Shown: positions 8,061 through 49,296 of the stretch, in pieces | Layout of the letters: each line of letters opens with the position of its first letter | Position numbering within the stretch: position 1 is the stretch's first letter | Assembly (NCBI RefSeq): GCF_050920415.1 | Contig: NZ_CP169309.1 | DNA length: 64,000 nucleotides | Reading direction: 5' to 3' (one strand) | Source: Escherichia coli | GTDB lineage: Bacteria; Pseudomonadota; Gammaproteobacteria; Enterobacterales; Enterobacteriaceae | Notes under the pieces: model-generated | What the model saw: only the letters and a program-made list of their open reading frames with translations | Told to the model about the DNA's origin: nothing | The model's database searches: none | Program-made: the position numbers and the translations under genes

Positions 8061-9722
8061 ATGATTAACCGTATCCGCGTAGTCACGCTGTTGGTAATGG
8101 TGCTGGGGGTATTCGCACTGTTACAACTTATTTCCGGCAGTCTGTTTTTTTCCTCCCTTCACCATAGCCAGAAGAGCTTTGTGGTTTCCAATCAATTACG
8201 GGAACAGCAGGGCGAGCTGACGTCAACCTGGGATTTAATGCTGCAAACGCGCATTAACCTGAGTCGATCAGCGGTGCGGATGATGATGGATTCCTCCAAT
8301 CAACAAAGTAACGCCAAAGTTGAATTGCTTGATAGCGCCAGGAAAACATTGGCCCAGGCCGCGACTCATTATAAAAAATTCAAAAGCATGGCACCGTTAC
8401 CTGAAATGGTCGCTACCAGTCGTAATATTGATGAAAAATATAAAAACTATCACACAGCGTTAACTGAACTGATTGATTATCTTGATTATGGCAATACTGG
8501 AGCTTATTTCGCTCAGCCAACCCAGGGAATGCAAAATGCAATGGGCGAAGCGTTTGCTCAGTACGCCCTCAGCAGTGAAAAACTGTATCGCGATATCGTC
8601 ACTGACAACGCAGATGATTATCGATTTGCCCAGTGGCAACTGGCGGTTATCGCGCTGGTGGTGGTAATGATTCTGCTGGTGGCGTGGTACGGCATTCGCC
8701 GTATGTTGCTTACACCCCTGGCAAAAATTATTGCTCATATTCGCGAAATCGCCGGTGGTAACCTGGCGAATACCCTGACCATTGATGGGCGCAGTGAAAT
8801 GGGCGATCTGGCGCAGAGCGTCTCACATATGCAACGCTCTTTGACTGACACCGTCACTCATGTGCGCGAAGGCTCTGATGCCATCTATGCTGGCACCCGT
8901 GAAATTGCGGCGGGCAATACCGATCTTTCTTCCCGTACTGAACAGCAAGCATCCGCGCTGGAAGAAACTGCCGCCAGCATGGAGCAACTCACCGCGACGG
9001 TGAAGCAAAATGCCGATAACGCCCGCCAGGCCTCGCAACTGGCGCAAAGTGCCTCCGACACCGCCCAGCATGGCGGCAAAGTAGTGGATGGCGTAGTGAA
9101 AACGATGCATGAGATCGCCGATAGTTCGAAGAAAATTGCCGACATTATCAGCGTTATCGACGGTATTGCCTTCCAGACTAATATCCTCGCGCTGAATGCC
9201 GCGGTTGAAGCCGCGCGAGCGGGTGAACAAGGCCGTGGTTTTGCCGTGGTGGCGGGCGAAGTGCGTAATCTTGCCAGTCGCAGCGCCCAGGCGGCAAAAG
9301 AGATCAAAGCCCTCATTGAAGACTCCGTCTCGCGCGTTGATACCGGTTCGGTGCTGGTCGAAAGCGCCGGGGAAACAATGAACAATATCGTCAATGCTGT
9401 CACTCGCGTGACTGACATTATGGGCGAGATTGCATCGGCATCGGATGAACAGAGCCGTGGCATCGATCAAGTCGCATTGGCGGTTTCGGAAATGGATCGC
9501 GTCACGCAACAGAACGCATCGCTGGTGCAGGAATCAGCTGCCGCCGCCGCTGCGCTGGAAGAACAGGCCAGTCGTTTAACGCAAGCGGTTTCCGCGTTCC
9601 GTCTGGCAGCCAGCCCACTCACCAATAAACCGCAAACACCATCCCGTCCTGCCAGTGAGCAACCACTGGCACAGCCACGACTGCGAATTGCAGAACAAGA
9701 TCCAAACTGGGAAACATTTTGA
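8061..9722 (+). CDS. tar: Methyl-accepting chemotaxis protein II (aspartate/maltose sensor) Tar
   Basis: [23 protein letters not shown]..., 553 aa; HAMP and MCP signalling domain; C-terminal NWETF pentapeptide. Confidence 0.92.
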
Positions 9723-9767: not shown

Positions 9768-11369
9768 ATGTTTAATCGTATTCGAATTTCGACCACGCTG
9801 TTTTTAATTTTGATTCTCTGCGGGATCTTGCAGATTGGCAGTAACGGCATGTCTTTTTGGGCATTTCGCGATGATTTGCAACGATTGAATCAGGTCGAGC
9901 AGAGCAATCAGCAACGTGCGGCATTAGCGCAAACTCGGGCGGTGATGTTACAGGCCAGCACCGCGCTGAATAAAGCGGGCACTCTGACGGCGCTTAGCTA
10001 TCCGGCAGAGGACATTAAAACGTTGATGACGACGGCGCGCGCCAGTCTGACGCAATCCTCTACGTTATTTAAAAGTTTTATGGCGATGACTGCGGGCAAC
10101 GAGCACGTCAGGGCGTTGCAAAAAGAGACGGAGAAAAGTTTTGCCCGTTGGCACAACGATCTCGAACATCAGGCGACCTGGCTTGAAAGTAATCAACTTT
10201 CGGATTTCCTCACTGCGCCGGTGCAGGAATCACAGAATGCGTTTGACGTTAACTTTGAGGCCTGGCAGCAGGAGATCAACCATGTGCTGGAAGCCGCCAG
10301 TGCGCAAAGCCAGCGTAACTATCAGATTTCGGCGCTAGTGTTTATCAGCATGATTATTGTTGCAGCGCTCTACATCAGCAGTGCGCTGTGGTGGACGCGC
10401 AAGATGATTGTTCAACCACTGGCCATTATCGGTAGCCATTTTGACAGCATTGCTGCGGGTAATCTGGCGCGTCCGATTGCGGTGTATGGTCGCAATGAGA
10501 TCACCGCCATTTTTGCCAGCCTGAAGACCATGCAGCAGGCTTTACGTGGGACGGTGAGTGATGTGCGTAAGGGAAGCCAGGAGATGCACATTGGTATCGC
10601 GGAGATTGTCGCAGGCAATAACGATCTCTCAAGTCGTACCGAACAGCAGGCGGCATCGCTGGCACAAACGGCCGCCAGTATGGAGCAATTAACCGCCACG
10701 GTAGGGCAAAACGCCGATAACGCACGACAGGCGTCGGAACTGGCAAAAAATGCCGCAACAACGGCGCAGTCGGGCGGTGTTCAGGTCAGTACCATGACTC
10801 ACACCATGCAGGAGATCGCCACCAGCTCGCAAAAAATTGGCGACATTATTAGCGTTATCGACGGCATTGCTTTCCAGACCAATATTCTGGCCCTGAATGC
10901 GGCAGTGGAAGCGGCTCGCGCCGGAGAGCAGGGGCGTGGTTTTGCGGTAGTGGCAGGTGAAGTGCGCAATCTTGCCAGCCGTAGCGCCCAGGCAGCAAAA
11001 GAGATCAAAGGGCTGATCGAAGAGTCAGTCAATCGTGTCCAGCAGGGTTCGAAACTGGTGAATAACGCCGCCGGGACCATGACCGATATTGTCAGTTCGG
11101 TGACCCGCGTGAACGACATTATGGGAGAAATTGCCTCGGCGTCGGAAGAACAACGGCGGGGAATTGAGCAGGTTGCACAGGCTGTCAGCCAGATGGATCA
11201 GGTGACTCAGCAGAACGCCTCCCTGGTAGAAGAAGCGGCGGTGGCAACGGAACAACTGGCGAACCAGGCTGACCATCTTTCGTCGCGTGTGGCGGTATTT
11301 ACCCTTGAAGAACATGAAGTAGCACGACATGAGTCGGCGCAGTTACAGATTGCGCCAGTGGTATCCTGA
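9768..11369 (+). CDS. tap: Methyl-accepting chemotaxis protein IV (dipeptide sensor) Tap
   Basis: MFNRIRISTTLFLILILCGILQIG..., 533 aa; paralog of Tar with the same MCP signalling core. Confidence 0.92.
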   Translation: MFNRIRISTTLFLILILCGILQIGSNGMSFWAFRDDLQRLNQVEQSNQQRAALAQTRAVMLQASTALNKAGTLTALSYPAEDIKTLMTTARASLTQSSTLFKSFMAMTAGNEHVRALQKETEKSFARWHNDLEHQATWLESNQLSDFLTAPVQESQNAFDVNFEAWQQEINHVLEAASAQSQRNYQISALVFISMIIVAALYISSALWWTRKMIVQPLAIIGSHFDSIAAGNLARPIAVYGRNEITAIFASLKTMQQALRGTVSDVRKGSQEMHIGIAEIVAGNNDLSSRTEQQAASLAQTAASMEQLTATVGQNADNARQASELAKNAATTAQSGGVQVSTMTHTMQEIATSSQKIGDIISVIDGIAFQTNILALNAAVEAARAGEQGRGFAVVAGEVRNLASRSAQAAKEIKGLIEESVNRVQQGSKLVNNAAGTMTDIVSSVTRVNDIMGEIASASEEQRRGIEQVAQAVSQMDQVTQQNASLVEEAAVATEQLANQADHLSSRVAVFTLEEHEVARHESAQLQIAPVVS

Positions 11370-41689: not shown

Positions 41690-41943
41690 ACAACCAGACA
41701 ATGACTTTTACCCCTGAACAATTACGCAAACAGGCGCAGGAAATGCTGCGACAGGCGGAACAACTGGAAAAATCAGGCGTAACAAAAGATGCCATTCGTC
41801 GGGATATGGTACCCGCGCTCAGAGAACTGATGCAGGCAAAACACCGCGCACAAAAAGCGGTGGATGAGCTGGTGGATTGTGTGGCAGAGCTGGAAACAAA
41901 AGTTGGAAAATTTGAAAAACTGGTGCAGGAGGTACTGCGCTGA
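41686..41943 (+). CDS. Hypothetical coiled-coil protein (85 aa)
   Basis: ORF between the helicase and Q genes, overlapping both ends. Confidence 0.5.
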
Positions 41944-42308
41944 TGCGTGATATTCAGATGGTTCTTGAGCGTTGGGGGGCGTGGGTGGCAAATAACCACG
42001 AAGATGTTACCTGGTCGTCGATTGCTGCGGGATTCAAAGGACTGATTCCGTCAAAGGTTAAGTCACGTCCGCAATGTTGTGACGATGACGCGATGATCAT
42101 TTGTGGTTGCATGGCTCGTCTGAAAAAGAACAACCGTGACTTGCATGATCTGCTCGTGGATTATTACGTTGGGGGAATGACTTTTATGGCGCTTGCAAGG
42201 AAACATGGACGTTCAGATTGCTGGGTTGGTCGTTTGTTGCAAAAAGCAGAGGGGATCGTGGCTGGTATGTTAATGATGTTGGATGTCAAACTAGAGATGG
42301 AATATTAA
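41943..42308 (+). CDS. Late-gene antiterminator Q (QuuD/phage-82-like family)
   Basis: 121 aa, [34 protein letters not shown]...[16 protein letters not shown]; resembles E. coli DLP12 QuuD as recalled. Confidence 0.75.
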
Positions 42309-42475: not shown

Positions 42476-43663
42476 TTACTCCATGCTAAGTGAATCCTGA
42501 TAGCGCTTAAATGCCTCCGCGAAAGCTAGAGCAGCATCAGCATTTGATACCATGTATTCTTCTGTAATGCCTGTTTGGGACTGGAAATATAACTTTCCAT
42601 AAATGCAAATTGGGATTTGATAGTTATCTTTAAATCGTCGGTCTGGTGAGCCATCTTTATTTGTTTTTGCCCATGTATGCCCAGCTATGCTGGCATCACT
42701 CGGAACACCATCCTCTTCATGGAACCCTTGATGCTGCGCATTAATTTGTAATTCCCGTAAGTCAATCAGAGCAAATGCCCCATCGGGGCGAGGAATTACA
42801 GCAATACCCGGATAAAGCAATATATCGTCGCCATTGACATTTTCAAATCGCATTGCTCTTCCAGTAAAACGAATTAGATCTGTTGAAGCGAAATCAAATA
42901 CGACTGGATGACGATCAACTGCTCGTGTAGCTAACGTCCTTTCTGCAAACTGATCTATAGCTTTATCTGCGGTAATATCCCATTTTTTGATACTTGATTT
43001 TAAAATATCGAAAGCACGAATCATTGCTGCATAAGCCCGCTGTGAGGAATCGCTGGTTTCGAAATTAATGACGATTTTAGTGTTATCTTCCCAGGATACA
43101 AGACGAGATACTTCTGCTTGTATTTGTGGTAGCGTTGCTTCAAGTTCTGCAATGCGACGTTTATAAAACCATCGAAACAGGCTTGATTTACGTCGAGCCA
43201 ATTCACTCTTTTGTCTTGATTCTTCTGCAAGAGCCTCTTGTAAGTCAGATGCTATTTCCGCTCTTTGTTCTCGTGCTTTAACGATCAAGTCTCGTAAAGG
43301 TAAAAGAGATGTACTTGTCAAGGCCTCTACTGAGGCACTGGAGATTTCATTCATGCCTGTTTGTGGCATGTACATTTTTGCGTTTGATGGGGTGTTGTCT
43401 GAAATTAACTCGGGTGCATCAATATGAGATTCTACAGACGACGGATTTAGCTGAATGGTTGTGGATGGTTTGTCTTTGTATGGTAAACGAGGGGATGTAT
43501 ACGATAAACCAGATCCTGGTAACCCTAGAGTTGCTTTAATTCCTTTTTGGTTAACATTAACTGTGGCTCCGGGGACACCAAAACTTGCGCTTACCCCATG
43601 TTTACCGATGTTAAGGCGTACTCCGGGGAAAATGGTAAAAGTTTGTCTGAAGCGAAGAGACAT
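42476..43663 (-). CDS. Reverse-strand moron: 395-aa protein with DUF4236-like N-terminus, central coiled coil and unknown C-terminal domain
   Basis: N-terminus MSLRFRQTFTIFPGVRLNIGKHGVSASFGVPGATVNVNQKGIKATLGLPGSGLSYT matches the DUF4236 pattern; AGGGA RBS; oriented against late transcription; AT-rich flanks. Confidence 0.75.
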   Translation of the reverse strand: MSLRFRQTFTIFPGVRLNIGKHGVSASFGVPGATVNVNQKGIKATLGLPGSGLSYTSPRLPYKDKPSTTIQLNPSSVESHIDAPELISDNTPSNAKMYMPQTGMNEISSASVEALTSTSLLPLRDLIVKAREQRAEIASDLQEALAEESRQKSELARRKSSLFRWFYKRRIAELEATLPQIQAEVSRLVSWEDNTKIVINFETSDSSQRAYAAMIRAFDILKSSIKKWDITADKAIDQFAERTLATRAVDRHPVVFDFASTDLIRFTGRAMRFENVNGDDILLYPGIAVIPRPDGAFALIDLRELQINAQHQGFHEEDGVPSDASIAGHTWAKTNKDGSPDRRFKDNYQIPICIYGKLYFQSQTGITEEYMVSNADAALAFAEAFKRYQDSLSME

Positions 43664-43696
43664 AAGATAATCCCTGTGTAGTAATGTCTAAAGTTA

Positions 43697-43717
43697 CATT
43701 CCATACTGGAATGTAAT
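43697..43717. promoter_or_regulatory. Perfect 9-3-9 palindrome upstream of the moron gene (candidate operator)
   Basis: TACATTCCA-tac-TGGAATGTA located 34 nt upstream of the start codon at 43663. Confidence 0.45.
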
Positions 43718-43855
43718 ACTGCGATGAGACACGAGGCTCATTAAGGATTTTGGCATTTTGCTGACATAAATTCTATAAAAATTATGGTGATAAACGTTTT
43801 ACAATCGTAAAAAAACAAATATGCTGTTAAGAGTGGTACTACGCCACACAGCTTA

Positions 43856-43881
43856 AACCCGCCGATGAGCGGGTTTTTTTG
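43856..43881 (+). terminator. Rho-independent terminator
   Basis: ACCCGC-cgatga-GCGGGT followed by TTTTTTT. Confidence 0.65.
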
Positions 43882-44037
43882 TGCACAGAAAACCCCCAGC
43901 TAGGCTGGGGGTTCCGGAAAGCTTTCAGCTTTGAGCCAGTTATTAAAACCCCTTTTGATTTGTTAAAACACCTTGCGGTCTGGCAACTTCTTAACTCACT
44001 TATTGTTTCCACCCATGTTTTTGGATACCTGCTGTAG

Positions 44038-44074
44038 CTGTCAGATTAGCGCGATAATCTGACAGCTTTTTTTT
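44038..44074 (+). terminator. Strong rho-independent terminator
   Basis: 11-bp stem CTGTCAGATTA...TAATCTGACAG followed by T8. Confidence 0.75.
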
Positions 44075-44363
44075 ACAACGAATCCTTCTGATCTGCTTTT
44101 GCGGGGCTTTTTTGTATCCGCTCCATGCCCGGCGTATAAGCGGAGGTTGGTCAGTTTTCTAAAAATTGAAATACCTCACAATTCAGCCAGTTAATGGTTG
44201 TTTGTCTGGCGAAGAGTTTGTAAATAAAAAAACGCATGGTGAATCCCCCTAAGCGGCGGGGCGAATCAGCAGTCAGTTCTGGGATAATCGCGGGTTCGTA
44301 TGCTGATGCCGGACTCACCGGGAGGCACCCGGCACCATGCATCATGGTCATCCCCTTGTATGA

Positions 44364-44389
44364 TACCCCTCTCCGGAGGGGTATTTTTT
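44364..44389 (+). terminator. Rho-independent terminator
   Basis: TACCCCTC-tccg-GAGGGGTA followed by TTTTTT. Confidence 0.7.
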
Positions 44390-44822
44390 GGATAAAAAAG
44401 CCCGCGCTGGGAGGCACGGGCGGCAAGGAATAAAACGTGAAGAAATTTTCACAGGCGCATAATAATCCGATGTTGCCAGATTTTGCAACTGCATCATCTG
44501 GTTATTATGTGAGCTGGAAAATCAGATTCTGTATGGACTGAAGCCATGCTGTTATTCAGGGCCAAAGAACGGACTTTTTCTTCCGCCTTTCAGGTAACGA
44601 TTAATGAGAAAAAGACTGAAATGCCCCCTCGGGGAGGAGGATAGTAGAAAAAAGAACCCGCCAGCAAAAATATTGGGGGGATGAACAGCTTTCGCTACTC
44701 TGGTTGCTGGCGGGTATAGCTCCTCATGAATAAGAATGTCGCGGTATTTTTTAATGGAAATGAGAATCATTGTCAACTGATTGCGTGTGTTGTCTTCATA
44801 CATGACTGGTAAAGGTGATTCA

Positions 44823-44853
44823 GGCCATCAGAGTTTTGCTGATGGCCTTTTTT
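44823..44853 (+). terminator. Terminator immediately upstream of the holin start (candidate tR'-like late terminator)
   Basis: GGCCATCAG-agttttg-CTGATGGCC followed by TTTTTT; lies inside the extended holin ORF of the ORF track. Confidence 0.6.
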
Positions 44854-44886
44854 CTTTCCGGTAGCACAGGTCTGTCGGGGCGGGAT

Positions 44887-45102
44887 ATGTATCAGATGGA
44901 AAAAATATCAACAGGCATTGCCTACGGCACCTCCGCAGGCAGTGCTGGCTACTGGTTTTTACAGTGGCTTGATCAGGTCAGCCCGTCACAGTGGGCTGCG
45001 ATTGGTGTACTGGGAAGTCTGGTTCTGGGCTTTCTGACTTATCTGACGAATCTGTACTTCAAAATCAGAGAAGACAGAAGAAAGGCTGCGAGAGGAGAGT
45101 AA
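44887..45102 (+). CDS. Holin (EssD/phage-21 S-like, class II)
   Basis: [71 protein letters not shown], 71 aa, closely resembles DLP12 EssD as recalled. Confidence 0.85.
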
Positions 45103-45106
45103 TATA

Positions 45107-45457
45107 ATGGTCCAAAACTATGAAATGATTGTGAAAGGGATCCGCAATTTTGAGAATAAAGTTACGGTAACTTTAGCATTACAGGACAAAGAACGCTTTG
45201 ACGGTGAAATTTTTGACCTGGACATCTCGCTGGACCGTGTTGAAGGTGCCGCGCTGGAGTTTTATGAGGCAGTAGCCAGAAGGAGCATCAGACAGGTCTT
45301 CCTGGATGTTGCTGCCGGGTTATGTGAAGGGGATGAGCAGTCGCCGGAAAAGCGCCCCGTAATTTTAGAGGCGCAGAATGTGTGGATAACCTACAAAGGA
45401 AAGCTACCAGGAAGAATTACTGGTTCTCTGAAGACTCCTCCGGAATCACAACCTTAA
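45107..45457 (+). CDS. Hypothetical protein (116 aa) inserted between holin and endolysin
   Basis: ORF MVQNYEMIVKGIRNFENKVTV... with no TM segment or signal peptide. Confidence 0.5.
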   Translation: MVQNYEMIVKGIRNFENKVTVTLALQDKERFDGEIFDLDISLDRVEGAALEFYEAVARRSIRQVFLDVAAGLCEGDEQSPEKRPVILEAQNVWITYKGKLPGRITGSLKTPPESQP

Positions 45458-45520
45458 GTCACTGACCGGAACAGATAAACCTGTCCGTGGGCAGAAACCG
45501 ATAAATCCTGATAAATATCC

Positions 45521-46054
45521 ATGAACGCAAAAATCAGATACGGCCTGTCGGCTGCCGTTCTGGCACTGATTGCCGTCGGTGCTCCCGCGCCTGATATTCT
45601 CGACCAGTTTCTGGATGAAAAAGAAGGTAACCACACAACGGCATACCGCGATGGTTCCGGCATCTGGACCATCTGTCGGGGTGCCACGATGGTGGATGGA
45701 AAACCCGTTTTTCCCGGTATGAAACTGTCGAAGGAAAAATGCGACCAGGTTAACGCCATTGAACGTGATAAGGCGCTGGCATGGGTGGAGCGCAATATTA
45801 AAGTACCACTGACCGAACCACAGAAAGCGGGTATAGCGTCATTTTGTCCCTATAACATTGGCCCCGGTAAGTGTTTCCCGTCGACGTTTTATAAGCGGCT
45901 GAATGCCGGTGATCGTAAGGGTGCATGCGAGGCGATTCGCTGGTGGATAAAAGATGGTGGGCGCGATTGCCGCATACGTTCAAATAACTGCTATGGACAG
46001 GTTATTCGTCGTGACCAGGAAAGCGCATTAGCCTGTTGGGGGATAGATCAGTGA
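45521..46054 (+). CDS. SAR-endolysin (lysozyme with N-terminal signal-anchor-release domain)
   Basis: 177 aa; hydrophobic N-terminus [18 protein letters not shown] followed by a lysozyme-like domain. Confidence 0.8.
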
Positions 46055-46515
46055 GCAGAGTCGCCGCGATTATTTATGCTCTGGTTATCTGCATCATCGT
46101 CTGCCTGTCGTGGGCGGTCAATCATTACCGTGATAACGCCATCGCCTACAAAGAACAGCGTGATAAAAAAGTCAGTGAGCTGAAGCAGGCGATCGCCACC
46201 ATCGCTGACATGCAGCAGCGTCAGCGTGATGTTGCTGCGCTCGATGCAAAGTACTCGAGAGAATTAGCCAATGCGAAAGCTGAAAATGAAACTCTGCGCG
46301 CTGATGTTGCCGCTGGTCGTCGTCGGTTGCACATCAAAGCAGTCTGTCAGTCAGTGCGTGAAGCCACCACCGCCTCCGGCGTGGATAATGCAACCAGCCC
46401 CCGACTGGCAGACACCGCTGAACGGGATTATTTCACCCTCAGAGAGCGGCTGATGACGATGCAGATGCAACTGGAAGGGGCACAGGAGTATATCCGCACT
46501 CAGTGCATTAAGTAG
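46051..46515 (+). CDS. Spanin inner-membrane subunit Rz (i-spanin)
   Basis: GTG start overlapping the endolysin stop; N-terminal TM then coiled coil. Confidence 0.75.
46271..46453 (+). CDS. Spanin outer-membrane lipoprotein Rz1 (o-spanin), embedded in the +1 frame of Rz
   Basis: Lipobox LVVVGC followed by a proline-rich segment PPPPPAW; entirely nested in Rz. Confidence 0.75.
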
Positions 46516-46557
46516 CCTTTTTATCGTGGTAAACATTTCGCAGGGTATGAGGTATTT

Positions 46558-46908
46558 ATGCCATCACGAATCCCACGCGCCTGCCGTAAGCGTGGATGTG
46601 CAGGTACAACCACAGACAGTTCTGGTTACTGCGATAAACATCGTGGCGAAGGATGGGTACAGCATCAACGCGGACTGAGCCGCCACCAGCGTGGCTATGG
46701 CTCGAAATGGGATGCCATACGTGCGCGCATACTGAAGCGTGATAATCATCTGTGTCAGAACTGCCTGCGCAATGGGAGAGCCGTTGAAGCCAGAACTGTG
46801 GACCACATCATTCCGAAAGCTCATGGTGGCACGGATGCAGACAGTAACCTGCAGAGTCTGTGCTGGCCCTGTCATAAAGCAAAAACAGCGCGCGAACGCA
46901 TCAATTGA
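46558..46908 (+). CDS. HNH endonuclease (terminase-associated)
   Basis: 116 aa; Cys-rich; HNH motif DHIIPKAHGGTDADSNLQSLCWPCH. Confidence 0.8.
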   Translation: MPSRIPRACRKRGCAGTTTDSSGYCDKHRGEGWVQHQRGLSRHQRGYGSKWDAIRARILKRDNHLCQNCLRNGRAVEARTVDHIIPKAHGGTDADSNLQSLCWPCHKAKTARERIN

Positions 46909-47056: not shown

Positions 47057-47539
47057 ATGTCAGGACCTCCGAAAACCCCGCCACGCCTGCATTTGATACG
47101 AGGCAACCCCTCAAAGCGTCCCGTTAAAGACCACAAAAAAACCGCTAAAAAGGATGAAAAAGGTCTTCCTAAAATTCCGCAGCATTTAGGGGCTCAGGGG
47201 AAGTACTGGTTCAGGCGAATGGCGGAAGAGCTGAATGCGGAAGGGATCATTTCTCAGCTTGATGCACGTGCGCTCGAGTTGCTGGTGGAAGCCTACACCG
47301 AATATCGGCATCACTGCGAAACACTCGATGTTGAGGGGTATACTTACCGCACGGAAACGCAGAGCGGTGATGTACTGATTAAGGCGCACCCCGCGGCGGC
47401 AATGAAAGCGGATGCCTGGAAGCGGATCCGGGCAATGCTTGCAGAGTTTGGTATGTCACCGGCAAGCCGGGCTAAAGTAAATATCGCCGGACCGGATGAT
47501 GTTGATCCGCTGGCGGAGCTTTTAAAAGCGAGAGACTGA
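47057..47539 (+). CDS. Terminase small subunit
   Basis: 160 aa, directly upstream of and overlapping the large terminase; basic N-terminus. Confidence 0.75.
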   Translation: MSGPPKTPPRLHLIRGNPSKRPVKDHKKTAKKDEKGLPKIPQHLGAQGKYWFRRMAEELNAEGIISQLDARALELLVEAYTEYRHHCETLDVEGYTYRTETQSGDVLIKAHPAAAMKADAWKRIRAMLAEFGMSPASRAKVNIAGPDDVDPLAELLKARD

Positions 47540-49296
47540 TGGCAAAAGTGGCTGACGGGATCCGCTACGCCGAACGTGTTGTTGCAGGAGAAATTGTTGC
47601 TGGCGAATTTGTCCGCCTGGCCTGCCAGCGTTTTCTTGATGATCTGAAGTACGGCGAAGAGCGGGGGATTTATTTCAGTGAACCCCGTGCGCAGCACATC
47701 CTGAATTTCTACAAATTTGTGCCTCATGTAAAAGGGGCGCTGGCAGGCCAGCCCATTGAGTTGATGGACTGGCATGTATTTATCCTCATTAATATTTTTG
47801 GTTTTGTCATTCCGCTGGTCAATGAAGAGACCGGGGAAGTTGTCATGCGCAGCGATGGCAGCGGACGTCCGGTGATGGTGCGCCGGTTCCGGACGGCGTA
47901 CAACGAAGTCGCCCGTAAAAACGCAAAATCAACTCTGTCATCGGGTATCGGCCTGTATATGACGGGGGCAGATGGTGAAGGCGGAGCTGAGGTGTATTCA
48001 GCCGCAACCACGCGTGACCAGGCCAGAATCGTGTTTGAAGACGCCAAAAATATGGTCAGAAAAGCCCGGTCGACACTCGGGCGGTTGTTTGATTTCAACA
48101 AGCTGGCGATTTACCAGGAGCAGAGCGCATCAAAATTTGAACCGCTTTCTTCGGATGCAAACAACCTGGATGGTCTGAACATTCACTGCGCCATTATTGA
48201 TGAGCTGCATGCACATAAAACCCGTGACGTGTGGGACGTTCTGGAAACGGCAACCGGTGCTCGTCTGCAGTCCCTTTTATTTGGTATCACCACGGCAGGG
48301 TTTAACAAGGAAGGGATTTGTTACGAGCAGCGTGATTACGCCATCAAGGTATTGCGTGGCTATAACAGCGACGTGGAGGGCGCGGTAAAAGACGACTCCT
48401 ACTTTGCGATTATTTACACCCTCGATGAGGGAGATGATCCGTTTGATGAAACGGTCTGGCAGAAAGCGAATCCCGGCCTGGGCATCTGTAAACGCTGGGA
48501 TGATCTGCGTCGCTTGGCGAAAAAAGCGAAAGAACAGGTCTCTGCTCGGGTGAATTTTTTTACCAAACACATGAATGTGTGGGTAACAGCAGAGTCTGCC
48601 TGGATGGACATGATTAAGTGGGAGAAGTGCGAATACATTGCCCCACGACATGAGCTGAAAACGTATCCCATGTGGGTCGGCGTTGACCTTGCTCATAAGA
48701 TTGATATCTGTGCGGCGGCAAAACTCTGGCGAACGGATAACGGGCATGTTCATGCCGATTTTAAATTCTGGCTTCCGGAAGGACGGCTGGAACGATGCTC
48801 GCGGCAGCAGGCAGAACTTTACCGGAAGTGGGCGGAGATGGATAAGCTGATTCTGACGGATGGTGATGTTATCGATCATGCTCAGATAAAAAGTGACTTA
48901 CTGGAATGGATTGGTGGTGAAAACCTCAGGGAACTGGGATTTGACCCGTGGAGCGCGATGCAGTTCAGCCTGGCACTGGCTGAAGAAGGGATACCGCTGG
49001 TGGAGGTTCCGCAGACGGTTCGCAATCTGTCAGAGGCCATGAAGGAAACGGAATCACTGGTCTATGCCGGGCGTTTCCATCACAGCAATCATCCGGTCAT
49101 GAACTGGATGATGTCTAACGTTACGGTAAAACCGGACAAAAACGACAATATCTTCCCGAATAAATCCACGCTGGAAGCCAAAATCGACGGTCCTGTTGCG
49201 ATGTTTACAGCAATGAGCCGGATGCTGGTCAATGGCGGTGAACCGGAGCCGGATCTGTCTGAGCATCTGGTCAGCGTTGGTATCCGCTCGCTTTAA
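47539..49296 (+). CDS. Terminase large subunit
   Basis: 585 aa; ATPase N-terminus and nuclease C-terminus arrangement. Confidence 0.85.

What the first reader, a model, noticed from the sequence alone, without database searches (positions are those of the whole stretch)
45107..45457. Extra 116-aa gene between holin and SAR-endolysin
Lambdoid lysis cassettes usually run holin, endolysin, Rz/Rz1 contiguously. Here a soluble 116-aa ORF of unknown function is inserted between the holin (44887-45102) and the endolysin (45521-46054). It might modulate lysis timing or be an unrelated moron carried in the late transcript.
Basis: seen in the sequence. Interest (0 to 1): 0.45.

Follow-up and report, generated by a model that had tools for sequence, protein, structure and literature searches.

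The report
Common YdfR-family gene in lysis cassette
The "extra" gene between the holin and the endolysin is an ordinary member of the YdfR (DUF1327) family, which is already annotated, occurs in about 80% of complete E. coli genomes, and still has no known function.

Summary
The ORF is real: 45107-45457, + strand, 116 aa, soluble. It starts 4 nt after the holin stop and has an AGGAG Shine-Dalgarno 9 nt upstream. It is not an unusual insertion. It matches Pfam DUF1327 at E=3e-42, and the exact protein is already in NCBI as "YdfR family protein [E. coli]". The order holin-ydfR-lysozyme-Rz/Rz1 is that of the K-12 Qin prophage (essQ-ydfR-rrrQ-rzpQ) and of Stx and mEp460-like phages. Homologous DNA occurs in 4348 of 5426 complete E. 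coli genomes.

Residues 1-74 form a conserved, acidic domain of three strands and a helix, under purifying selection (dN/dS about 0.3). Residues 75-116 are a swappable tail that was modelled with low confidence. No structural or profile search linked it to any characterised family.

Distant members sit elsewhere in late operons: after Rz in Cronobacter, and between tail genes I and J in Yersinia-like prophages. This argues against a dedicated holin/endolysin role.

The only functional data come from a 2026 paper. It shows that residues 1-72 of K-12 YdfR (80% identical here) bind the catalytic half of RNase E and that the protein co-purifies with RNA.

Best reading: a late-expressed cytoplasmic accessory protein, possibly acting on RNase E or RNA. 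The gene is already known; interest is low to moderate.

The parts
44887..45102 (+). Class II, phage-21 S-like holin of 71 aa, with Met1/Met4 dual start (MYQMEK...). It is the upstream gene of the cassette.
   Evidence: ORF. Matches phrog_9876 and phrog_20 'holin' at E=3e-35 and 7e-33. RefSeq relatives are named 'class II holin family protein'.
45093..45097 (+). AGGAG Shine-Dalgarno for the ydfR-like ORF. It lies inside the last holin codons, 9 nt upstream of the ATG. The holin stop (TAA, 45100-45102) is 4 nt before the ATG.
   Evidence: Sequence. The junction ...GAGAGGAGAGTAAT..AATG is conserved in Qin and L003. The same 4-nt spacing is seen in Stx2-86, mEp460 and Evi, and 3 nt in PhiR12_2.
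45107..45457 (+). YdfR-family (DUF1327) gene, 116 aa plus stop. This is the finding.
   Evidence: The exact protein is in NCBI/UniRef as 'YdfR family protein [Escherichia coli]'.
45107..45328 (+). Codons 1-74: the conserved DUF1327 core domain. It is predicted as three antiparallel strands plus one long helix and is acidic (net charge -5, pI 4.6).
   Evidence: AF2 pLDDT is 70-89 for residues 1-70, with E5-14, E18-27, E34-43 and H50-74. It is 80% identical to K-12 YdfR residues 1-74. dN/dS is about 0.3.
45329..45454 (+). Codons 75-116: the variable C-terminal tail ('B module', ...EKRPVILEAQNVWITYKGKLPGRITGSLKTPP, then ESQP). It is shared with the 114-, 176-, 183- and 268-aa variants and absent from K-12 YdfR.
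   Evidence: Alignment A3. AF2 pLDDT is below 50. The homology breakpoint after ...TPP is shown against L003.
45458..45520 (+). 63-nt untranslated spacer before the lysozyme. The last ~23 nt (AAATCCTGATAAATATCC) are shared with relatives. No canonical Shine-Dalgarno and no significant RNA structure.
   Evidence: The RNA fold z-score is -0.06. There is no significant similarity to the Qin ydfR tail.
45521..46054 (+). RrrQ-type lysozyme of 177 aa. Its N-terminal segment is weakly hydrophobic and rich in Ala and Gly (consistent with a SAR domain, but not tested).
   Evidence: Matches phrog_7 'endolysin' at E=2e-63. The hydropathy peak is 1.87 at residues 9-27. It is close to K-12 rrrQ.
46051..46515 (+). 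Rz-like inner-membrane spanin. The GTG start overlaps the lysozyme stop; the mechanical ORF list starts it at a TTG at 46036.
   Evidence: Matches phrog_13 at E=8e-77. Sequence.
46271..46453 (+). Rz1-like outer-membrane lipoprotein spanin, embedded in Rz in the +1 frame.
   Evidence: Matches phrog_3198 at E=3e-30.

Best explanation
The ORF is a YdfR-family (DUF1327) gene. It is a standard accessory gene of the late operon in lambdoid prophages of E. coli that carry an S21-like holin and an RrrQ-type lysozyme. It is co-transcribed with the lysis genes and translationally coupled to them.

Its product is a soluble, acidic cytoplasmic protein. It has a ~74-residue N-terminal domain of three strands and one helix, followed by a recombinationally swappable C-terminal tail.

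The most likely mechanism is inferred, not shown here. The N-domain would act in the cytoplasm late in infection by binding the catalytic half of host RNase E and/or RNA. It would then affect RNA processing or decay, not the holin, the endolysin or the spanins. Its position in the holin-endolysin gap would reflect a recombination and cargo junction, not a lysis function.

Confidence by tier:
- Family identity: about 0.97.
- Not a core lysis component: about 0.65.
- Mechanism through RNase E or RNA: about 0.3.
For: Identity:
- Pfam DUF1327 at E=3e-42.
- phrog_406.
- PGAP name 'YdfR family protein' at syntenic loci.
- The exact sequence is in NCBI.
- Same gene order as K-12 Qin.

Real protein-coding gene:
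- dN/dS is about 0.3, against about 0.07 for the holin and lysozyme.
- The Shine-Dalgarno and the spacing from the holin stop are conserved.

Cytoplasmic and soluble:
- No hydrophobic segment.

Not tied to the holin or endolysin:
- An identical YdfR is paired with three divergent holin alleles in L003, L004 and L005.
- In Cronobacter the 72-aa homologue follows Rz in a cassette with unrelated holins (Phage_holin_8 and holin_3_7).
- In Yersinia-like prophages it lies between tail genes I and J on four contigs.
- DLP12 has an S21-like holin abutting its lysozyme with no ydfR.

Mechanism (literature, PMC13232886):
- Residues 1-72 of K-12 YdfR were recovered three times in a two-hybrid screen.
- Full-length YdfR gives a two-hybrid signal with Rne 1-597.
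- Rne 1-598 co-purifies with Strep-YdfR.
- The YdfR eluate carries abundant DNase-resistant nucleic acid.
- The window protein is 80% identical to K-12 YdfR over exactly that region.
Against: - The RNase E interaction was shown only for the K-12 protein.
- That co-purification was not repeated with nuclease treatment for YdfR, so it may be bridged by RNA.
- Over-expression of ydfR changed few transcripts and did not affect growth.
- The two-hybrid signal appeared only with Rne 1-597, not with the shorter catalytic-domain constructs.
- The N-domain is acidic, which is unusual for a direct RNA binder.
- No fold or profile search linked the domain to any characterised family, so the mechanism rests on a single paper.
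- Nothing here tests whether the protein affects lysis. The Keio ydfR mutant was listed as envelope-leaky in a CPRG screen, which could mean YdfR restrains lysis genes. A polar effect of the kan cassette on rrrQ is an equally good explanation (my inference).
Confidence: 0.4

Rival explanations
1. It is accessory cargo with some other role, and the RNase E binding is incidental. Possible roles include counter-defence, superinfection exclusion, a host-takeover function, or a benefit to the lysogen. The DUF1327 N-domain would be a generic protein-binding module, and the variable tails would carry the specificity.
For: - The family behaves like mobile late-operon cargo. It sits at module junctions in three different positions: S|R, after Rz, and I|J.
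- C-termini are highly mosaic, with total lengths from 72 to 268 aa and modules that swap order, as in P0146.
- dN/dS is 4-5 times higher than for the neighbouring lysis genes, as expected for host-interaction genes.
- The gene is nearly always followed by a small antisense ORF from a changing family, which suggests a cargo hotspot.
- Over-expression has little effect on the transcriptome.
Against: - No PADLOC match, although PADLOC holds defence proteins, not anti-defence proteins.
- No similarity to any characterised protein.
- No promoter or terminator of its own and no deviant GC content, so expression in the lysogen is unlikely. The 2026 paper found almost no ydfR reads in growing K-12.
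Confidence: 0.35
2. It is a cytoplasmic regulator of lysis timing. It would be functionally analogous to the soluble antiholin T4 RIII or to P1 LydB and P2 LysA/LysB, acting on the cytoplasmic tail of the S21-like pinholin or on the membrane-tethered SAR endolysin.
For: - Its position and translational coupling to the holin are invariant in E. coli phages: the ATG is 3-4 nt after the holin stop.
- It is almost co-extensive with the RrrQ-type lysozyme across E. coli genomes (4348 against 4428 genomes).
- The Keio ydfR mutant was scored as envelope-leaky.
- The holin's cytoplasmic C-tail (YFKI[RK]ED[RK]RKAARGE) is basic and conserved, and the YdfR N-domain is acidic.
Against: - No similarity to any PHROG family in the lysis category.
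- No membrane segment.
- The same YdfR allele is found with holin alleles that differ at dS above 2.
- Homologues in Cronobacter and in Yersinia-like prophages sit outside the holin-endolysin gap and with other holin classes.
- The paradigm cassettes (DLP12; phage 21 from my own knowledge) work without it.
- The CPRG phenotype can be explained by polar expression of rrrQ.
Confidence: 0.15
3. It is a decaying or functionless remnant, a truncated derivative of the longer 176-268-aa forms, carried along passively.
For: - Compared with L003, the window lacks about 480 nt after codon ~112 and ends in a private 'ESQP' tail.
- Many database entries are fragments or frame-shifted fusions.
- Residues 75-116 are modelled as disordered.
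Against: - The 116-aa form itself is widespread. Its 90% cluster has 945 members, and close variants are on many complete chromosomes.
- The N-domain is under purifying selection.
- Functional phages (mEp460, Evi, Stx phages) keep the gene.
- Stand-alone 72-76-aa N-domains are the norm in other genera, so the N-domain alone is probably sufficient.
Confidence: 0.05

Closest known systems
E. coli K-12 YdfR (b1555, P76160) of the Qin cryptic prophage; Pfam DUF1327 (PF07041); PHROG 406/2091/1085/2735
   Same: - Same family: Pfam E=3e-42.
- 80% identity over residues 1-74.
- Same gene order, holin-ydfR-RrrQ-type lysozyme-Rz/Rz1.
- Same coupling to the holin stop.
   Different: - The tail after residue 74 is unrelated: 42 residues of the 'B module' here against 29 different residues in K-12.
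- K-12 ydfR overlaps the rrrQ start (ATGA), whereas here a 63-nt spacer follows.
Longer YdfR variants of Stx and related prophages (176/183 aa, e.g. P0026, P0039; 268 aa, Stx2-converting phage 86 gp05)
   Same: Same N-domain and the same B module up to ...SLKTPP, in the same position after the holin.
   Different: They continue into a coiled-coil-like module and, in gp05, a further ~150 residues (phrog_1085). A small antisense ORF follows before the lysozyme. The window version stops after the B module and has no antisense ORF.
Phage-encoded RNase E effectors: T4 Srd, T7 gp0.7 kinase, phiKZ Dip (gp37). Recalled from my own knowledge, not tested here.
   Same: All are small phage proteins that contact host RNase E. 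If the K-12 result carries over, this protein would work like them, as a phage factor acting on host RNA decay (PMC13232886).
   Different: - No sequence relationship.
- Those three are proteins of virulent phages, whereas this one is expressed late, with the lysis genes, by temperate phages.
- Dip and gp0.7 target the C-terminal scaffold of RNase E, whereas YdfR was reported to bind the N-terminal half.
- No effect of YdfR on RNA decay has been shown.
Soluble or accessory lysis regulators: T4 RIII, P1 LydB, P2 LysA/LysB. Recalled from my own knowledge.
   Same: They are small, non-enzymatic proteins encoded in or next to lysis cassettes. RIII is cytoplasmic and binds a holin's cytoplasmic domain.
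   Different: - No homology detected: no PHROG hit in the lysis category.
- Family members occur away from lysis genes.
- No lysis phenotype is known.

Membership tests
YdfR family / DUF1327 (PF07041) | Significant full-length match to the family profile | tested here: met
   PF07041 at i-Evalue 3.1e-42, 143 bits, model positions 1-92 of 93. phrog_406 at E=2.4e-66 over positions 1-113 of 114.
YdfR family / DUF1327 (PF07041) | Close sequence relationship to the name-giving protein, K-12 YdfR | tested here: met
   BLASTP gives 59 of 74 identities (80%), E=7e-46, over residues 1-74. The tails are unrelated.
YdfR family / DUF1327 (PF07041) | Named as such by curated annotation pipelines | tested here: met
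   The exact sequence is in NCBI/UniRef as 'YdfR family protein [Escherichia coli]'. Syntenic RefSeq loci carry the same name.
YdfR family / DUF1327 (PF07041) | Prophage late-operon context, typically holin-ydfR-lysozyme in Escherichia | tested here: met
   Seen in the window, Qin, L003-L005, Stx2-86, mEp460, PhiR12_2 and Evi.
Antiholin / lysis-timing regulators | Homology to a known lysis regulator or holin-derived antiholin | tested here: not met
   All five PHROG hits are families of unknown function, and none is in the lysis category. There are no NCBIfam hits.
Antiholin / lysis-timing regulators | Membrane segment (for membrane antiholins) | tested here: not met
   The highest 19-residue hydropathy is 0.82.
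Antiholin / lysis-timing regulators | Changes lysis timing when deleted or over-expressed; binds the holin | not testable with these tools
   Needs genetics and biochemistry. Indirectly, there is no co-variation with holin alleles, and homologues exist outside lysis cassettes.
Phage RNase E effectors (functional class) | Physical interaction with RNase E | not testable with these tools
   Reported for K-12 YdfR by two-hybrid assay and co-purification with Rne 1-598 (PMC13232886). It was not tested for this allele, and RNA bridging was not excluded.
Phage RNase E effectors (functional class) | Alters RNase E activity or RNA stability | not testable with these tools
   In the literature, ydfR over-expression affected only a few transcripts. 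No in vitro assay has been reported.
Phage RNase E effectors (functional class) | Structural or sequence similarity to Srd, Dip or gp0.7 | tested here: inconclusive
Moron (autonomous lysogenic-conversion cassette) | Own promoter and terminator, often antisense or compositionally distinct from its neighbours | tested here: not met
   The gene is on the sense strand and coupled to the holin. The only promoter-like site is a weak internal one at 45150-45179, and there is no flanking terminator. GC is 0.467, against 0.486 and 0.519 for the neighbours.
dsRNA-binding domain (dsRBD) | alpha-beta-beta-beta-alpha fold with a basic RNA-binding face | tested here: not met

The most novel reading that the evidence does not exclude
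The DUF1327 N-domain is a module of temperate lambdoid phages that binds RNase E and/or RNA. It is made together with the lysis proteins, and its interchangeable C-terminal tails redirect or inhibit host RNA decay late in infection. This would be a previously unrecognised class of RNA-decay effector in temperate phages, present in about 80% of E. coli genomes.
Probability: 0.25. Interest if true: 0.6.

Novelty: already known. Interest (0 to 1): 0.22.

Why it matters
As a genome observation it adds nothing new. The gene, its family name and its position in the cassette are already in RefSeq for thousands of genomes.

It remains worth a note for three reasons. It is one of the most widespread uncharacterised prophage genes of E. 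coli (4348 of 5426 complete genomes, up to 10 copies per genome). It is embedded in one of the best-studied gene cassettes in phage biology. And in the searched literature nobody has tested whether it affects lysis.

A single 2026 report links the K-12 protein to RNase E. If that holds for active phages, it would give lambdoid phages an RNA-decay effector, and it would explain why the gene is retained.

Tried and rejected
1. Spacer as a remnant of the Qin-type YdfR tail. The 63-nt spacer (45458-45520) has a +1 frame that stays open up to a TGA overlapping the lysozyme ATG. Local alignment with the Qin tail is no better than shuffles: 90 of 2000 shuffles reach the score, and the score comes only from the 9-nt ATAAATATC just before the lysozyme ATG. 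Rejected.

2. Regulatory RNA structure in the spacer. The fold z-score is -0.06. Rejected.

3. Remote homology to a characterised protein.
   - The PDB profile search found nothing below E=1.5.
   - BFVD gave nothing at E<=0.001.
   - AFDB50 returned only DUF1327 members at E below about 0.02.
   - The search of 1.84 billion representative proteins returned only 64 clusters, essentially all from this family.

4. Weak repeated matches to two very long proteins. These are P0172 (3128 aa) and P0174 (818 aa, a repeat-rich lipoprotein-like sequence), at E about 1e-4 to 4e-5. I judged them to be compositional or chance matches and did not follow them up.

5. Defence-system membership. There are no PADLOC hits for the protein, its longer variants or the antisense neighbours.

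6. Functional hints from fused domains in the long variants. All extra modules fall in PHROG families of unknown function and have no Pfam domain.

7. AlphaFold docking to RNase E with a linker fusion. I considered this and did not run it, because the tool returns no inter-chain confidence and the result could not be interpreted.

8. Literature on a lysis role. No paper in the library contains holin, endolysin and ydfR together. The only functional paper on E. coli YdfR is PMC13232886.

Full report
**Observation.** The window holds an ATG-initiated ORF of 116 codons at 45107-45457 on the + strand.
- It lies between a 71-aa holin (44887-45102) and a 177-aa lysozyme (45521-46054). Rz and the embedded Rz1 follow (46051-46515 and 46271-46453).
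- PHROG assigns the four neighbours to holin, endolysin and Rz-like spanin families. The ORF itself falls in families of unknown function (phrog_406, E=2.4e-66).
- The holin stop (TAA, 45100-45102) is 4 nt before the ATG, and an AGGAG lies 9 nt upstream.
- The protein has no hydrophobic segment: its highest 19-residue hydropathy is 0.82, against 1.72 for the holin and 1.87 for the lysozyme N-terminus.

**Identity.** The ORF is a known, annotated family member.
- It matches Pfam DUF1327 (PF07041) at E=3.1e-42 over almost the whole model.
- RefSeq names the syntenic gene 'YdfR family protein'.
- The exact 116-aa sequence is already in NCBI and UniRef under that name, on 36 contigs.
- The name-giving gene is ydfR of the K-12 Qin cryptic prophage, whose order is essQ (holin)-ydfR-rrrQ (lysozyme)-rzpQ/rzoQ. 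That is the arrangement seen here.
- The window protein is 80% identical to K-12 YdfR over residues 1-74 and unrelated after that.

**How common it is.**
- DNA homologous to the ORF occurs at 8614 places in 4348 of 5426 complete E. coli genomes, with up to 10 places per genome.
- The RrrQ-type lysozyme that follows it occurs at 11110 places in 4428 genomes.
- The whole 1.9-kb holin-ydfR-lysozyme-Rz segment is at least 80% covered in 1991 genomes.
- The gene is present in 101 phage records, including many Stx1 and Stx2 converting phages, mEp460 and Evi.
- In every E. coli phage or prophage I opened, it starts 3-4 nt after an S21-like holin and precedes the RrrQ-type lysozyme.
- DLP12 shows the alternative arrangement, in which an S21-like holin abuts its lysozyme directly.
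- So the gene is the rule for this cassette type and not an unusual insertion.

**Anatomy.**
- An AlphaFold2 model built on a 25-sequence family alignment gives a confident N-terminal domain: strands 5-14, 18-27 and 34-43 and helix 50-74, with pLDDT about 70-89. Residues 75-116 have pLDDT below 50.
- The N-domain is acidic, with net charge -5 and pI 4.6. Its conserved motif is ...EGxxLExYEA... at the junction of the last strand and the helix.
- The C-terminus is mosaic across the family. Total lengths are 72 aa (Evi), 103 (K-12), 104 (mEp460), 116 (here), 169-183 and 268 aa (Stx2-86).
- Breakpoints recur after about residue 74 and after ...SLKTPP. In one protein (P0146) the modules appear in a different order.
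- Compared with the 176-aa form (L003), the window lacks about 480 nt after codon 112.
- The long forms are followed by a small antisense ORF before the lysozyme. The window has only a 63-nt spacer, without significant structure.

**Selection.**
- Pairwise Nei-Gojobori estimates for codons 1-72 give dN/dS of about 0.25-0.45 at informative divergence (dS 0.4-2.0).
- The same phages give about 0.07 for the holin and the lysozyme.
- The gene is therefore protein-coding and constrained, but it evolves four to five times faster than its neighbours.
- The same YdfR allele occurs with three divergent holin alleles (L003-L005), so there is no sign of co-evolution with the holin.

**Family range and position elsewhere.**
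- An exhaustive HMMER scan of 1.84 billion representative proteins found only 64 clusters.
- Foldseek against AFDB50 returned only DUF1327 proteins. At 19-34% identity these extend to Yersinia, Salmonella, Hafnia, Providencia, Morganella and Rosenbergiella, mostly as stand-alone domains of 72-76 aa.
- In a Cronobacter malonaticus prophage the 72-aa homologue lies after Rz, in a cassette with unrelated holins (Phage_holin_8 and holin_3_7) and a 146-aa lysozyme.
- In four Yersinia-like prophage contigs the homologue lies between tail genes I and J.
- In all these places it is co-directional with the late genes and is followed by an antisense small ORF. That ORF belongs to a different family each time (phrog_2572, 1853, 25324, 6806, 18578).
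- This is how late-operon cargo at module junctions behaves. It is not what a component functionally tied to a holin or endolysin would show.

**Function.** No search connected the domain to a characterised family.
- The PDB sequence-profile search gave no hit below E=1.5.
- BFVD gave nothing significant, NCBIfam nothing and PADLOC nothing.

**What the literature shows.** The only functional data I found are in PMC13232886 (RNA Biol 2026).
- Residues 1-72 of K-12 YdfR were recovered three times in a two-hybrid screen.
- Full-length YdfR gave a two-hybrid signal with RNase E 1-597.
- RNase E 1-598 co-purified with Strep-YdfR.
- The eluate contained abundant DNase-resistant nucleic acid.
- Over-expression changed few transcripts and did not affect growth.
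- Nuclease-resistance of the interaction was shown for YegJ, not for YdfR.
- That paper also cites a CPRG envelope screen. The Keio ydfR mutant is indeed listed in that screen's supplement.
- Because the kan cassette would sit directly upstream of the lysozyme gene, a polar effect is an obvious alternative explanation. This is my inference.

**Interpretation.**
- Family identity is near certain.
- I consider it likely (about 0.65) that the protein is not a core lysis component. Relatives occur outside the holin-endolysin gap and with other holin classes, there is no co-variation with the holin, and paradigm cassettes lack it.
- The most specific mechanism available is binding of RNase E and/or RNA in the cytoplasm late in infection. 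It rests on one paper about an 80%-identical domain, and I give it about 0.3.
- The rivals are another cargo function with incidental RNase E binding (0.35), a cytoplasmic lysis-timing regulator (0.15) and a functionless remnant (0.05).
- It is not a classic moron. It is on the sense strand, is translationally coupled, has no flanking promoter or terminator, and has ordinary GC content (0.467, against 0.486 and 0.519 for its neighbours).

**Verdict.**
- The gene is already known and annotated, so the novelty is nil.
- The remaining interest is that a gene this widespread, sitting inside a classic cassette, still has no tested role.

Noticed in passing
L003:4479-4745(-), L006:3317-3631(-), L008:2958-3218(-), L009:2744-3040(-), L010:3282-3506(-), L012:3769-4329(-), L013:3744-4025(-): In most relatives a small antisense ORF of 74-186 aa follows the DUF1327 gene directly. 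It belongs to a different unknown-function family in each lineage (phrog_2572/DUF1823, 1853, 25324, 6806, 18578). The site just downstream of DUF1327 looks like a hotspot for antisense cargo. The window has no such ORF.
   Followed up: partly
window 42476-43663 (-): A 395-aa ORF (phrog_17982, unknown function) lies antisense to the late operon, between the Q antiterminator homologue (41943-42308) and the holin. This is the position where Stx phages carry their toxin genes.
   Followed up: partly
window 43700-44880: About 1.2 kb without convincing ORFs lies upstream of the holin. It carries most of the ten terminator-like hairpins found in 43600-46700 (3.7 expected from shuffles), one of them at 44822-44848 just before the holin start. 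It probably contains the late promoter and terminator region read through by Q. No tRNA genes were found.
   Followed up: partly
window 46558-46908 (+), 47057-47539 (+), 47539-49296 (+): An HNH endonuclease gene sits directly after the spanins and before the small and large terminase subunits. This arrangement is typical of HK97-like packaging modules that depend on HNH.
   Followed up: partly
window 45500-45523: The lysozyme ATG has no recognisable Shine-Dalgarno. It is preceded instead by a conserved AAATCCTGATAAATATCC, which is shared with L003 and partly with Qin. In Qin the lysozyme start overlaps the ydfR stop (ATGA), so the endolysin may normally depend on translational coupling that this allele lacks.
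   Followed up: no
proteins P0008, P0025, P0047, P0083, P0091, P0119: Some database entries fuse the holin domain (PF04971) and DUF1327 in a single polypeptide of 139-187 aa. These are most likely frameshift or sequencing artefacts at the 4-nt holin-ydfR junction. They were not checked.
   Followed up: no
protein P0146: In this 112-aa protein a coiled-coil-like module comes first and the 'B module' (...EKRPIILEAQRVWITYKGKLPGRITGSLKTPP) comes last, with no DUF1327 N-domain. The tail modules therefore also circulate independently of the N-domain.
   Followed up: no
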